Shown here: piece after piece, positions 18,301 to 63,240 of the stretch
Layout of the letters: each line of letters begins with the position of its first letter
How positions within the stretch are numbered: position 1 is the stretch's first letter
Translations under genes and position numbers: made by a program
From: Octopus vulgaris
Taxonomy: Eukaryota
Direction of reading: 5' to 3'
DNA length: 64,000 nucleotides
Assembly (NCBI GenBank): GCA_951406725.2
Contig: OX597842.1
Coordinates: forward strand, 558,001 to 622,000
The notes under the pieces: model-generated
What the model was told of the DNA's origin: nothing
Seen by the model: the letters and a program-made list of their open reading frames with translations, nothing else
Databases searched by the model: none

Positions 18301-18365
18301 ACTTTATTAACATTATTTACGTTATTTACATTTGATGGATATTTGTCCTCATCTTGTTTGTTGTT

Positions 18366-18410
18366 AACACAACGTTTCGGCTATATACCCTCCAGCCTTC
18401 ATCAGGTGTC
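18366..18410 (-). ncRNA. Minimal type I hammerhead ribozyme, core intact
   Basis: GACAC CUGAUGA A GGCUG GAGGGUAUA UAGCC GAAAC GUU GUGUU; stems I and II pair; palindromic AACGUU stem III region. Confidence 0.8.
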
Positions 18411-18591
18411 TTGGGGAAATTTCAAACTTGGGTTCTCATTCCTAAACTATTTTTTGATGTTATTATTATTATTATTATTATTATTGTTATTGTTATTATT
18501 ATTCAATTCTATATTTAAGAGATTAGGAATTATGTACATTATTTACCTTATTTACAATTGAAGGATATTTGTCCTCATCTTGTTTGTTGTT

Positions 18592-18637
18592 AACACAGTG
18601 ATTCGACTTATATACCCTCCAGCCTTCATCAGGTGTC
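18592..18637 (-). ncRNA. Degenerate hammerhead (GAAA changed to GAAU, cleavage region mutated)
   Basis: GACAC CUGAUGA AGGCUG..AAGUC GAAU CACU GUGUU. Confidence 0.6.
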
Positions 18638-18969
18638 TTGGGGAAATTTCAAACCTGGGTTCTCATTCTTAAGGTATTTTTCGATGTTACTATTATTATT
18701 ATTAGCATTGTTACTGAACCTGTGGGATTGAACCTGGAACCTTGTAGTTAAGAAACAAGCATCTTACCACCCAACCATACCATAACACATATATTCTATT
18801 TATTTTATTCTTTTACTTGTTTCAGTCATTTGACTGCGGCCATGCTGGAGCACTGACTTGAAGGGTTTTAGTTGAACAAACTGACCCCAGGACTTATTTT
18901 TTAAGCCTTGTAGCTATTCTATCAGTCTGTTTTGCTGAACTGCTAGGATTTAATAAAAATCACTAGAAT

Positions 18970-19598
18970 TTCAGCAACAGTACTTTGAAATAAGGATTAT
19001 TTGCCAGCATAACATGGAAGAGTGGAGGTACGCAGCTTAGTGGTTAGGGTGTCAGCATCATGATCGTAAGATTGTGGTTTTGATTCCTGGACCGGGCCAC
19101 GCGTTGTGTTCTTGAGCAAAACACTTCATTTCACATTGCTCCAGTCCACTCAGCTGGCAAAAATGAGTAATGCTACGATGGACTGGCGTCCCATCCAGGT
19201 GGGGAATTTCTACGCCACTGAAAATGGGAAACTGGCCCTTATGAGCCTGGCATGGCTTGAGAAGGAACATTTAGTGGAGGCATGTGGCTTAGTGGTTTAA
19301 GGTGTCAGCATCATAATCGTAAGATTGTGGTTTCGATTCCTGGACCGGGCGACGCATTGTGTTCTTGAGCAAAACACTTCATTTCACGTTGCTCCTGTCC
19401 ACTCAGCTGGCAAAAATGAGTAACATTGCAATGGACTGGCGTCCCGTCAAGCTGGGGAACACATACGCCATAGAAACTGGGAAACCGGGCCCATGAGCCT
19501 GGTTAGGCTTTAAAAGGGCAAATTTATTCTTTATTATAACATGGAAGCCCTGATGTTACGTTGGCAAATAATCTTTACTCCAAAGTACTGTTGCTGAA
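18970..19598. mobile_element. Palindromic MITE-like element (~45-bp arms) split by a SINE dimer
   Basis: TTCAGCAACAGTACTTTG..TATTTGCCAGCATAACAT (18970-19015) is inverted against 19553-19598. Confidence 0.7.
19021..19535 (+). mobile_element. Head-to-tail dimer of tRNA-headed SINEs (family J)
   Basis: A box TGGCTTAGTGG, B box GTTTCGATTCC; 12-bp TSD ATAACATGGAAG at 19009-19020 and 19536-19547. Confidence 0.85.
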
Positions 19599-19987
19599 TA
19601 TCTTTCGTTGTGAGATTTACAAATAGTAATTTTCTAATCACTAGAATTGTTTCTGAGCTTTAGTATCAGCTGGTCATTGCAGAAACACTGCTAATGTTGG
19701 GTCATACAGATGCAATAATGTAATGTGGAAAACGTTCTTTAATTAACAGCTGATGTGAAAAAAAAAATAACTATAATGATTTGCATCAATGTCTGTTCAT
19801 TTCTTCTTCTTGTGTTATTATCTTTTTATATGAATTGTGCAAATATTAATGGATTTGCACATGTATATCCAGTAAAAGGAGAGTTCCAGTTGAATGATAG
19901 CATATGATAGCCGACACCGGTGGAGGAACTTTGTATAAAGCACATTGTAAGGTTATTATTCAGAAATAATATATATATATATATATA

Positions 19988-20176
19988 AAGTTCAACTCCT
20001 TGGATGACGTAAAAAGATACGTTGATGAATTCTTTGCCATGAAACCACCTCAATTCTGGGAAGAGGGTATTTTCAAGTTAAAGGAAAGATGGAGACACAT
20101 TGTGCAATGAATGGCAAGGATTTATTGACCTTTTTCTTTCCTTTAAAAATTGGCATGAACTTTCCGGACAACCCAA
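19988..20176 (+). mobile_element. Mariner 3' fragment with right TIR
   Basis: Encodes FNSLDDVKRY..; ends TTCCGGACAACCCAA-TA. Confidence 0.85.
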
Positions 20177-20183
20177 TATATAT

Positions 20184-20580
20184 ATGGCAAAGAATTCATC
20201 AAGGTATCTTTTTACGTTATCCAAGGAATTGAAATTTTTACCATTAAGACTATTCTGCAGAGACCTGAATAAGTGGAAATCCGAAGGAGTAATATCCGGT
20301 GAATATGGAGGGTGGGGTAACACATCCCAGCCGAGCTGCAGCAATTTTTGTCTGGTTCCTAAATCATCAAGTTCCGAAAATGAACTTTCTTATTTTCCAT
20401 TTTAAAGGGTTACAGAATTAACACAGGTTATAGGAACATAAACCTTCTTCCACGAAAAGATAGCTTAAACTGTGCTCTAAATGGAGTTGTAGTCAAATCC
20501 TATTTTATGGACTCAACCATGTTCTAAAATAAGTCTGAAAGGTAAGCTACTATAAATCGGCACGAACTTTCCGGACAACT

Positions 20581-20583
<3 letters not shown>
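20184..20583 (-). mobile_element. Internally deleted mariner, left part with TIR
   Basis: ORF 20078-20344 has HPPYSPDITPSDFHLF; colinear with 52355-52755. Confidence 0.88.
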
Positions 20584-20615
<32 letters not shown>

Positions 20616-20618
<3 letters not shown>

Positions 20619-20765
20619 TCATCATCGTTTAACGTCCGCTTTCCATGCTAGCATGGGTTGGACGGTTCAACTGGGGTCTGGGAAGCCCGAAGGCTGCACC
20701 AGGCCAGTCAGATGTGGCAGTGTTTCTACAGCTGGATGCCCTTCCTAACGCCAACCATTCCGAGA

Positions 20766-20801
<36 letters not shown>

Positions 20802-60524: not shown

Positions 60525-60572
<48 letters not shown>

Positions 60573-60625
60573 CAGACAGACAGACAGATAGACAAATAGA
60601 TAGATAGTGGATAGATAAATAGAGG

Positions 60626-60665
<40 letters not shown>

Positions 60666-61806
60666 CAGATAGATAGAAAGATAGATAGATAGAAAAAGAG
60701 AGAGAGACGGAAACAATAAGAGAGAAACAAAAGTTATAGAGGATGAGAGCAATAGAGACAAAACAAGACAGTGAGAAAGAGAGAGAGAGAGAGAAAAAAA
60801 GAGAGAGAGAGAGGAAAGACAGGGTAGATGGGGCAGAACTGTGAGAAGTGATGAGAGAAAGATAGACAGAGAGAGAGAGAGAGAGAGAGGGAAGGGTAGA
60901 TAAAGAAAAAGAATGATATAGTATAGTGGGTGTGTCAGAAGTGTTGGGGTATGGGGTGGAGCAAGGGATGATTGACGGGAGGGGATAGGGAGGTGGCAGA
61001 AGGACGACAAGAGGAAGAGGGAGGTGGAGCAAGAAAAGGAACTGAAGTAGGAGGAGGAGGAGGATGAGAAGGAGGAAGATGAGGAGGAGGCGTTGTTGCT
61101 GTTCATTCAAGAAGTCAGAGGGAAATCCTGTGTTTATTTTCCATTTTCCTGTTTTTGGACATTGGTGGGGGTGGGGGTGGGAGGGATTGTGTGGTAGGGG
61201 GTGGAGGAGACTGAGGGAAGGAGGAGGAGGAGGAGGAAGAAAGTGTGTGTTTGTGTGTATTTTTGTATGTGTGTGTGTGAGAGAGTTTGTGTGTGTGTGT
61301 ATGTGTATGTATGCATGTTTGTATATGTGTTTGTAAATGTGTGTGTTTTGGCATGTGTGTGAGAGAGAGTTTATGTGTGTGTGTGTGTATGTGTGTGTGC
61401 GTATGTTTTGTGTGCATCTGTCTATGTATGTTCATGTCTATATATGTGTGTGTGTATATATATGTTTATGTATGTGTGTCTATATATTTGTGTGTGTGTG
61501 TGTGTATATGTTTGTGTGTGTGTGTTGGGGTATATGTGTTTCTGTATGCGAGTATGGAGTTAGAGTGTGTGTGTGTGTATGTGTAATGTGTGTGTGCGAT
61601 GTGTGTATGTGTATGCTGTGTAGATGTGTGTGTATTTGTATATGCATGTATATGTGAGCATGTATGTGTTTGTATCAGTGTGGATGTGTGCGTGTGTTTC
61701 TATGTGTGTGTGCATGTGTGTTCCTATGCATCTGCTCATCTATGTGCTTTTGTACATGTGTGTGTATATGTGTGGATACTTATATGTGTTTGTTGTGTAA
61801 GTGTAT

Positions 61807-61839
<33 letters not shown>

Positions 61840-62559
61840 TTTGTGTGTGTATGTGTGCATGCCTGAGAGTGTGTGTTTGCAAGTGTATGTGTGAGTTTGT
61901 GCATGTATGTGTGTTTGCATGTATGTATGTCTGTGTGCATGAGTGTGTGTGTGTATATGAGCATGTACGTATATGTATAGAAGTGCATGTATGTGTGTGT
62001 GTATGGATGTTTCTATGTATGTGTGTGTGTTTGTGTATGCATGTTTGTCTATGTGTGTGTATATGGGTGTATTCGTATGTGTATGTGCTTGGGGGGGAGT
62101 GTAGGAGGAAGAAAGAGAGAAGAGAATAGGAATAAGAGAAAGGGGGAGACAGGGAGAAGAGAGAAAGGATGAGAGTGGTGGTATGAGATAGAGAATACAC
62201 AAGAGGGAGAAAGAGAGAAAAAGGAGGGAGACAAGAGAGAAAGAGCAAGGAGAAATGGAGAGAGTGTGAAAGAGGGAGGTAATAGAAAAATGGACAGGAT
62301 CTAAGAGAGAAAGAGAGAGAGATAGGAAAGGAAGAGCAAAACAAAGGAGAGACAGAGTGAGGAGGGGAAGAGTTGGAAATAGAGGGAGTAGAGAGAGAAA
62401 AGGTAGTGTTAGTGAGTAAGAGGGGTGAGAGAGACAGTGATAGAGTGAAACAGACAGAGGGAGTGAAAAAGAGAAGAAGGGGAGAGAGAGAGAGATAGTG
62501 AAAGATAGAGAGAGATGTTTGAATATGAGAGTGGTAGTAAGGGTTGGAGGAAAGAAGTA

Positions 62560-62694
62560 GATGTGGTTAGTAGTTTGTTCCCTAACCACATGGTTCTGGG
62601 TTCAGTCCCACTGCATGGCACCTTCAACAAGTGTCTTCTGCTATAGCCTTAGATTGCTTTGTGAGTGAATTTGGTAGCTGGAAACTGAAAGAAA

Positions 62695-62735
<41 letters not shown>

Positions 62736-62895
62736 TGAAGGGCACAGCTGTGGTTATGTGGTAAGGAGCTTGCTTCCCAACCACATGGTTCCGGATTTAT
62801 TCCCACTGGGTGACTCCTTGGACAATTGTTGTCTACTGTAGCTTCAGGCCAACCAAACCCTTGTGTGTGGATCTGGTAGACAGAAACTCAAAAAG

Positions 62896-62905
<10 letters not shown>
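62560..62905 (+). mobile_element. Two SINE A 5' halves
   Basis: Family match; each ends in (TA)n. Confidence 0.8.
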
Positions 62906-62941
<36 letters not shown>

Positions 62942-62944
<3 letters not shown>

Positions 62945-63238
62945 CGTGACGCATATTTGCCATTTGAATATGGCTTACCCATAAGGGTGGATGCTACTGT
63001 AGTTTGTAGCCCCAGGAAGATATCTCCTCCAGCTGGTTATAGACACACTATCTGTGTCCTCTCAGTATTTGTGAAGGGGAGTCATCCTCCCCGTCTTCAA
63101 CACATGATACACACGTACCCGAGTTTCAAGGTGTTTACCTTTCATCAGCGTGTGACAATCATGGTTGTCGATGAGAAGTCAAATCCCTTCACAAATACAT
63201 ACTTTTTCCAGTGTCGATTGACACTGATATTGAAAAAG

Positions 63239-63240
<2 letters not shown>
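62942..63240 (-). mobile_element. Structured ~300-nt HHR element in (TA)n (family H4, retrozyme-like)
   Basis: Complex-sequence island between pure (TA)n runs; multiple inverted repeats; intact hammerhead. Confidence 0.8.
63097..63167 (-). ncRNA. Intact type I hammerhead ribozyme with extended stem I
   Basis: CAAC CAUGAU UGU CACACG CUGAUGA AAGGU AAAC ACCUU GAAAC UCGG GUA CGUGUG U AUCAUG U GUUG. Confidence 0.9.

What the first reader, a model, noticed from the sequence alone, without database searches (positions are those of the whole stretch)
18310..63240. Four distinct hammerhead-carrying mini-element families in 64 kb, all full-length cores on the minus strand
Seen: hammerhead cores at 18366, 18592, 22256, 32401, 45105, 58556 and 63110 are all on the minus strand. 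They use different stem sequences (GACAC/GGCUG; GUUU/GAGC; UCUUU/GAGC; CACACG/AAGGU) around the same core, which amounts to natural covariation. The only plus-strand cases are half ribozymes (58789 stops before GAAA; ~21035 lacks CUGANGA). All sit in (TA)n or next to (AAT)n. Inference: microsatellite-dwelling ribozyme retroelements are abundant in this genome. Six independent insertions on one strand (two-sided chance about 1 in 32) could reflect selection against sense-strand self-cleavage if the window is an intron transcribed on the plus strand.
Basis: partly seen in the sequence, partly recalled or inferred. Interest (0 to 1): 0.75.

Follow-up and report, generated by a model that had tools for sequence, protein, structure and literature searches.

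The report
Penelope retrotransposon tails with minimal hammerheads
These motifs are the tail ends of very abundant Penelope-type jumping genes carrying a small, likely self-cutting RNA; their shared direction here is likely chance, but one young family has a normally fixed catalytic letter changed in nearly all copies, and whether it still cuts is untested.

Summary
The seven minus-strand motifs are real (4 descriptor hits against 0 in 100 shuffles), but only 2 of 7 have a canonical intact core. A decayed plus-strand core at 41001 was missed. They are 3' end repeats of Penelope-like elements (PLEs) and short derivatives. Family C follows an RT-linked GIY-YIG gene and ends in (TA)n in 30 of 30 loci. 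Exact motifs number 2,193 (A), 10,683 (B) and 14,429 (C) genome-wide. The strand-selection idea is not supported. Flanks are 9 plus of 20. In 15 gene spans, 27 of 48 cores are sense (intact 6 of 15). On another chromosome, neighbouring intact copies share a strand in 96 of 195 pairs. SINE orientation argues against plus-strand transcription here. No host exon was found in 264 kb. A modest depletion of intact sense copies is not excluded. The point worth keeping: family C has U for core residue A6 (14,429 against 141 with A6) while positions 7 and 17 vary freely, in a very young element with open frames. Cleavage is untested. The scan noted A6U before in another genome, and retrozyme-like PLE repeats elsewhere in this one.

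The parts
18311..18451 (-). Family A unit, downstream copy of a tandem dimer (227-nt spacing); intact minimal type I hammerhead at 18366-18405 (CUGAUGA, 5-bp helix II, GAAA, palindromic ACGU stem III, GUU triplet, 5-bp helix I)
18460..18503 (.). (AAT)n spacer internal to family A units, not an insertion target
   Evidence: (tandem arrays L026/L027)
18537..18678 (-). Family A unit, upstream copy; core broken (GAAU, stem III lost)
22201..22360 (-). Family B copy, 3'-truncated; core 22256-22286 with G12A (AAAA), likely CpG decay
32306..32508 (-). Family C: solo 3' end repeat (pLTR) of a young RT + GIY-YIG Penelope-like element; core 32401-32433 CUGUUGA (A6U), otherwise intact; 3' end runs into (TA)n
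40904..40976 (-). Inverted, core-less partner of the 41001 copy
40968..41060 (+). Missed fifth family; decayed full-length core 41001-41040 (UUGAUGA...AAAA) on the plus strand
45011..45212 (-). Family B copy between (TA)n tracts; core 45105-45135 with G12A and weakened stems
58471..58640 (-). Family A copy; core boxes present at 58560-58593 but no stem III or cleavage triplet
58662..58812 (+). Inverted partner of the 58593 copy: head with A/B-box-like words (read by eye), (AAT)n, body cut before GAAA
   Evidence: head not called tRNA by ARAGORN or Rfam
62943..63238 (-). Family D, 293 nt of a ~352-nt retrozyme-like unit, strongly self-paired; intact core 63110-63148 with palindromic 8-nt stem III and GUA triplet; flanked by (TA)n

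Best explanation
The motifs are minimal type I hammerhead sequences in the 3' end repeats of Penelope-like retrotransposons (shown for family C, likely for A, B and D), scattered in thousands of copies that likely insert by target-primed reverse transcription in either direction, so their shared minus-strand orientation in this window is likely chance. Shown: C sits about 800 nt behind a GIY-YIG gene fused to an RT and ends sharply in (TA)n. A and D show tandem, partial and inverted neighbours. Stem III is a palindrome in all four families. Inferred: the element's endonuclease nicks (TA)n, which reads the same on both strands and so gives no direction; reverse transcription starts at the 3' end and usually stops early, leaving solo tails, often with an inverted piece. 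Inferred from published work: such hammerheads cut slowly and only as dimers, so a lone intronic copy costs the host little and most decay. The window is rich in them likely because it is rich in (TA)n.
For: C linked to a PLE gene in 30 of 30 loci whose endonuclease is identical to the query, plus one older locus; RVT_1 and a weak GIY-YIG hit in one frame; 3' junction into TA repeats in 30 of 30. 20 of 30 D loci have an extra tandem, partial or inverted piece; 18 of 48 gene-span copies have an inverted partner within 600 nt. Orientation: flanks 9 plus of 20, gene spans 27 sense of 48; 96 of 195 neighbour pairs co-oriented; genome-wide forward/reverse 1078/1115, 5267/5416, 7250/7179. (TA)8+ per 100 kb: 123 in the window, 35 in gene spans; cores 28 in 264 kb against 48 in 1,188 kb. 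Dimer dependence and low activity: PMC4209133, PMC6765202.
Against: No autonomous partner was found for A, B or D. Intact copies lean antisense in gene spans (6 of 15 sense; solo intact 2 of 8; intact fraction 6/27 sense against 9/21 antisense, Fisher p=0.21), so a modest effect may be hidden. Family-intact copies in the 264-kb region are 8 minus of 11 (p=0.23). The host gene and its strand were not identified. Family A's 3' ends are mostly not in (TA)n. No cleavage or stranded RNA data.
Confidence: 0.8

Rival explanations
1. One reading: the window is a plus-strand intron and selection removed hammerheads that would cut the pre-mRNA, leaving only antisense copies.
For: Six of six insertions minus (p=0.031, post hoc). 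Intact copies in gene spans lean antisense, 9 of 15, solo intact 6 of 8. A preprint reports retrozymes depleted from Xenopus introns, strand not examined in the passages seen.
Against: SINE orientation calls the region minus in 8 of 8 bins and disfavours plus by about 16 log units against untranscribed; T/A skew and poly-T/poly-A agree. No bias in 48 gene-span cores, no co-orientation of 204 intact copies. Five of seven cores are non-canonical, and a plus-strand core exists at 41001.
Confidence: 0.07
2. The region is a long minus-strand transcription unit, and retroelements here lean towards the sense strand, as the SINEs do, so the hammerheads are sense-oriented and tolerated.
For: SINEs are sense-biased in gene spans (92/142, 79/123, 20/30) and minus-biased here (56/98, 24/36, 11/15); minus beats untranscribed by 3.3 log units over 264 kb. 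Family-intact cores in the region are 8 of 11 minus.
Against: Hammerhead families show no clear sense bias in gene spans (27 of 48) and flanks are 9 plus of 20. No exon found. For the window alone minus beats untranscribed by only 1.0 log unit.
Confidence: 0.13
3. On family C only: the A6U core is a dead relic; the element spreads without RNA self-cleavage and the motif persists as a structural or protein-binding 3' signal.
For: A6 is treated as essential; a natural A6C variant cleaved at under 0.1 per minute (PMC3088659 passages). Naiad PLEs were reported to spread without detectable hammerheads. The monomer fold pairs UGUU with the stem III strand.
Against: Across 75 C-like cores the other core positions and both helices are kept, while N7 (U48, C13, A10, G4) and position 17 (U42, A30, C3, never G) vary as cleavage rules allow. 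Subfamily members share ancestry, so these counts are not independent events.
Confidence: 0.45

Closest known systems
Minimal hammerheads in pLTRs of metazoan Penelope-like elements (Cervera and de la Pena 2014, PMC4209133; parts 1-2 of 4 of the text read, supplements not seen)
   Same: Type I layout, 4-5 bp helix I, extra nucleotide after A9 in A, B and C, palindromic minimal stem III, thousands of mostly solo copies, nearby copies on opposite strands, U3-A8 variants in other families here.
   Different: Family C has A6U fixed and family B mostly U4C; neither appears in the parts read. A G3-C8 family also occurs in this genome.
Metazoan non-LTR retrozymes (Cervera and de la Pena 2020, PMC7229834, passages and section 14; Li et al. 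2026, bioRxiv 10.64898/2026.07.22.740005, part 1 of 5 and passages)
   Same: Family D: ~352-nt self-paired unit in tandem and partial copies, like mussel 350-390-bp repeats. Family A: ~220-nt tandem units. The preprint derives retrozymes from PLE pLTRs.
   Different: Most copies here are solo or in inverted pairs; circular RNA not shown; family C is directly the tail of a coding element.
Neptune/Nematis-type EN+ PLEs (Craig et al., bioRxiv 10.1101/2021.04.23.441226, passages)
   Same: RT then a CX4CXXC linker then C-terminal GIY-YIG; inverted truncated copy beside the pLTR; microsatellite targeting proposed for Neptune.
   Different: Clade not tested by a tree; very high copy number (17,420 first-look candidates, 150 of 150 scored identical over 131 aa).
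Schistosome SINE-like hammerhead repeats (as reviewed in PMC6765202, section 11 part 2)
   Same: Family A has a head with A/B-box-like words upstream of the hammerhead in 13 of 29 loci and forms tandems.
   Different: The head was not recognised as tRNA by ARAGORN or Rfam; Pol III transcription untested; minimal rather than canonical hammerhead.

Membership tests
Minimal type I hammerhead (PLE type) | CUGANGA and GAAA boxes in register | tested here: met
   Met by 18405, 63148 and (boxes only) 58593; family motifs A 2,193 and B 10,683 exact. Individual copies 18632, 22286, 45135, 41001 are decayed.
Minimal type I hammerhead (PLE type) | Invariant A6 (family C) | tested here: not met
   0 of 75 C-like cores have A6; 14,429 U6 against 141 A6 exact 30-mers.
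Minimal type I hammerhead (PLE type) | Helices I and II; palindromic minimal stem III; NUH triplet | tested here: met
   not met by copies 18632 and 58593.
Minimal type I hammerhead (PLE type) | Self-cleavage, as a dimer | not testable with these tools
   No raw reads or bench data; only folds.
Rfam hammerhead families | Covariance-model match | tested here: not met
   No hammerhead family hit at E<=10 for 62945-63238, 18300-18700 or L030; none among the 150 of 546 rows shown for the window.
Canonical EN+ Penelope-like element (family C) | RT followed by C-terminal GIY-YIG in one frame, hammerhead-bearing repeat downstream | tested here: met
   RVT_1 E=6e-8, GIY-YIG E=0.004 (below cut-off) in L289; C downstream in 30 of 30 loci.
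Canonical EN+ Penelope-like element (family C) | Second pLTR copy upstream of a full-length ORF | not tested
   Loci reach only 1.5 kb upstream of the endonuclease.
Neptune clade | Linker Zn-finger motif and RT phylogeny | tested here: inconclusive
   CX4CXXC linker seen; shared with Nematis; no tree built.
PLE-mobilised elements (A, B, D) | Tandem, partial and inverted 5'-truncated neighbours | tested here: met
PLE-mobilised elements (A, B, D) | Shared tail with an autonomous PLE | tested here: inconclusive
   None linked among 60 endonuclease loci; B is homologous to C.
Non-LTR retrozyme (A, D) | 170-400-nt tandem units each with a hammerhead, highly self-paired | tested here: met
   D ~352 nt, z=-7.4. 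A ~220-nt tandems, but the window dimer is not well folded, z=0.4.
Non-LTR retrozyme (A, D) | Circular RNA in vivo | not testable with these tools
   Only contigs of runs guessed to be RNA were available.

The most novel reading that the evidence does not exclude
One of this genome's most recently expanding Penelope-like retrotransposons runs on a hammerhead whose 'invariant' A6 is U in 99% of over 14,000 exact copies, with position 7 and the cleavage base free to vary. It is a working, slowed, dimer-only natural core variant, one of a set (A6U, U4C, U3-A8, G3-C8) by which PLE families tune cleavage low enough to be harmless inside host introns in either orientation.
Probability: 0.35. Interest if true: 0.62.

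Novelty: new variant of a known kind. Interest (0 to 1): 0.36.

Why it matters
The strand pattern is ordinary, which removes a tempting but unsupported selection story. What remains bears on an open question stated in the PLE literature: whether hammerhead cleavage is needed for retrotransposition. A very young, open-frame element with a fixed A6U core is a natural test case. If it cleaves, the hammerhead core is looser than descriptors assume and CUGANGA-based censuses miss the largest family counted here. If it does not, PLEs can expand with a silent ribozyme.

Tried and rejected
Rfam scan of the window: only microsatellite look-alikes among the rows shown, no hammerhead model. Host-gene search in 264 kb by ORF scoring, splice models and Pfam on 42 candidate frames: only transposon proteins, no convincing exon; wider flanks could not be obtained, so the host gene stays open. 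Sequencing runs: no RNA holder listed on record. Contigs of four runs guessed to be RNA cover family A deeply and the unique flank hardly at all; this shows neither strand nor level and is not used as evidence. Relaxed-descriptor cluster F6 was rejected as Ig-domain exons, and other clusters as SINE or transposase sequence. 25 profile hits without an in-register core (13 in gene spans, 12 in the region) were dropped before counting; the raw count was 29 sense of 56. The PLE just beyond the window end (extended coordinates 65420-69440) is not the parent of D: it has its own ~110-nt repeats. 21033 as a half hammerhead: no homologue found. tRNA origin of the family A head: not confirmed. Paper searches with no hit for intronic orientation bias of ribozymes or octopus TEs. 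'A6U' with hammerhead gave one listed paper, on twisters (listing only); one search gave none. Lunse et al. 2017 on PLE hammerhead variants was not held, so A6U may be described there or in supplements I did not see.
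Full report
Setting. The window is G000:C29:558001-622000 of a 2.8-Gb animal genome in 227 contigs. About 38% is tandem repeat. The repeats look octopus-like to me; that is recalled, and earlier scan notes use the same label. I added 200 kb of flanks and 1,187,500 bp in 15 gene spans of known strand, chosen from spectrin, I-set and PDZ domain hits and assumed to be single genes.

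Observation. All seven motifs are present on the minus strand with the stated stems. A strict descriptor finds 4 and none in 100 shuffles; D passes other descriptors. Only 18405 (family A) and 63148 (family D) are canonical and intact. 18632 has GAAU, 22286 and 45135 have AAAA, 58593 lacks stem III and the cleavage triplet, and 32433 has CUGUUGA. B and C are homologous. A fifth family has a decayed full core on the plus strand at 41001 with an inverted core-less partner. The plus-strand half at 58789 is the inverted partner of 58593. Six of six insertions gives p=0.031 and six of seven p=0.125, in a window picked after the fact.

What the elements are. Family C is the 3' end of a coding Penelope-like element. 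In the right flank a GIY-YIG frame is followed by a C copy and (TA)n on the same strand, with an inverted C fragment upstream; an older locus repeats the arrangement. That endonuclease had 17,420 first-look candidates; 150 of 150 scored were identical over 131 aa, with open frames up to 1,214 aa. All 30 fetched loci carry C about 800 nt downstream and run into TA repeats at a sharp 3' end. One frame holds RVT_1 (E=6e-8), a CX4CXXC linker and GIY-YIG (E=0.004, under the cut-off). Family D is a ~352-nt unit with 2,407 candidates; 20 of 30 loci have tandem, partial or inverted neighbours, and the window copy folds far better than shuffles (z=-7.4). Family A forms ~220-nt tandems, and 13 of 29 loci have a head with A/B-box-like words that ARAGORN and Rfam do not call tRNA. 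No autonomous partner for A, B or D was found among 60 endonuclease loci. Exact core motifs genome-wide: A 2,193, B 10,683, C 14,429.

How it likely works. Shown: the anatomy above, and palindromic stem III strands (ACGU in A, B, C; ACUCGGGU in D). Predicted: in the monomer folds the CUG box pairs with the stem III strand, an inactive shape. From the literature: such minimal hammerheads lie in PLE end repeats, are inactive as monomers and weak as dimers (PMC4209133, parts 1-2 of 4; PMC6765202 section 11 part 2). Inverted truncated neighbours and microsatellite targeting are PLE traits (bioRxiv 10.1101/2021.04.23.441226, passages). Inferred: the endonuclease nicks (TA)n, reverse transcription starts at the 3' end and mostly stops early, leaving solo tails. 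(TA)n is its own reverse complement, so the target sets no direction. The region holds 28 cores in 264 kb against 48 in 1,188 kb of gene spans, in step with (TA)8+ density of 104 against 35 per 100 kb.

Test of the strand idea. (1) Flanks: 9 plus of 20 cores; families A-D 8 of 17. (2) Gene spans: 27 sense of 48 (95% CI 0.41-0.71); family-intact 6 of 15; canonical-intact 2 of 4; solo intact 2 of 8 (p=0.29); 18 of 48 have an inverted partner, so one insertion often supplies both strands. 25 hits without an in-register core were dropped first. (3) 204 exact A, B and C motifs in the first 19 Mb of contig C1: 96 of 195 pairs 2-64 kb apart share a strand (permutation p=0.70). (4) Three SINE families lean sense in gene spans (92/142, 79/123, 20/30). 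A classifier built on this of 15 spans correctly when each is left out. It calls the 264-kb region minus in 8 of 8 bins (lnL plus -119.8, minus -100.0, untranscribed -103.3; window alone -24.5, -19.8, -20.8), and T/A skew and poly-T/poly-A agree. Plus-strand transcription is therefore disfavoured; minus versus intergenic is unresolved. Caveats: few, mostly muscle or neural genes; SINE copies may not be independent; no exon was found. A preprint reports retrozymes under-represented in Xenopus introns; 'antisense' and 'orientation' do not occur in its main text.

The A6U core. Among 75 C-like cores, position 6 is U in 72 and C in 3, never A. Position 7 varies (U48, C13, A10, G4), position 17 is U, A or C and never G, and both helices are kept (copies are related, and the parser required some anchor letters). 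Genome-wide the 30-mer with U6 occurs 14,429 times and with A6 141 times. Against B, helix I pair 4 switches G-C to C-G. B itself mostly has U4C (79 of the first 100 listed, my count). Other families use U3-A8 or G3-C8. PMC3088659 (passages) reports U3-A8 and U4C as natural and an A6C variant at under 0.1 per minute; 'A6U' does not occur in its text. A word search for A6U with hammerhead listed one twister paper. Lunse et al. 2017 was not held. An earlier scan note found a fixed A6U family in another genome; new here are the link to a young open-frame PLE and the genome-wide count. Whether C cleaves is untested; slow dimer cleavage and a relic are about equally likely.

Verdict. A known kind of element (PLE tails and retrozyme-like derivatives with minimal hammerheads), a strand pattern best read as chance, and one core variant worth a bench test. 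Interest 0.36.

Noticed in passing
15 gene spans L111-L230: Three SINE families with tRNA-like heads lean towards the sense strand of genes about 2:1 (92/142, 79/123, 20/30). This is opposite to the antisense bias I recall for mammalian L1 and LTR elements, and it works as a strand caller.
   Followed up: partly
L041:1420-5440 (just past the window end, minus strand): Near full-length Penelope-like element: 557-aa ORF1, 660-aa RT frame, frameshifted GIY-YIG, ~110-nt terminal repeats inside (TA)n; no hammerhead recognised in its repeats.
   Followed up: partly
Gene spans, e.g. C23 and C2 spans; left flank: A repeat family with an otherwise regular minimal hammerhead but core GUGAACA (G3-C8 swap), up to 7-bp helix I, often in inverted pairs.
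   Followed up: partly
L297-L320 and gene spans: Another PLE family and two repeat families use U3-A8 cores (UUGAUAA, UUGAAAA).
   Followed up: partly
window 21033-21097 (+) and about 47426-47383 (-): Two otherwise unrelated stretches share a layout with GCGAAACA first and GUGAGC later. They may belong to the rewired hammerheads noted elsewhere in this genome; not tested.
   Followed up: no
window 32550-32750, 32900-32995, 45270-45505: A further (TA)n-flanked repeat family in both orientations, with inverted partial copies elsewhere, next to the B and C copies; no hammerhead recognised.
   Followed up: partly
L051-L080: Family D 3' ends fall at several positions about 160-210 nt past the predicted cut site, not at it, and many copies exceed one unit; fits a circular or tandem template.
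   Followed up: no
window 10353-10790, 20078-20389, 52528-52848: Mariner-type transposase fragments (for the first; the others by similar translation).
   Followed up: no
window 8744-9280, 25367-26690; L047:1271-5130: LINE-like fragments in the window (by translation only) and a long RT-bearing element in the right flank.
   Followed up: no
G000 contig C1, first 19 Mb: Exact hammerhead motifs are patchy, 2 to 23 per Mb, dense in the first 5 Mb; the window also lies near a contig end.
   Followed up: no
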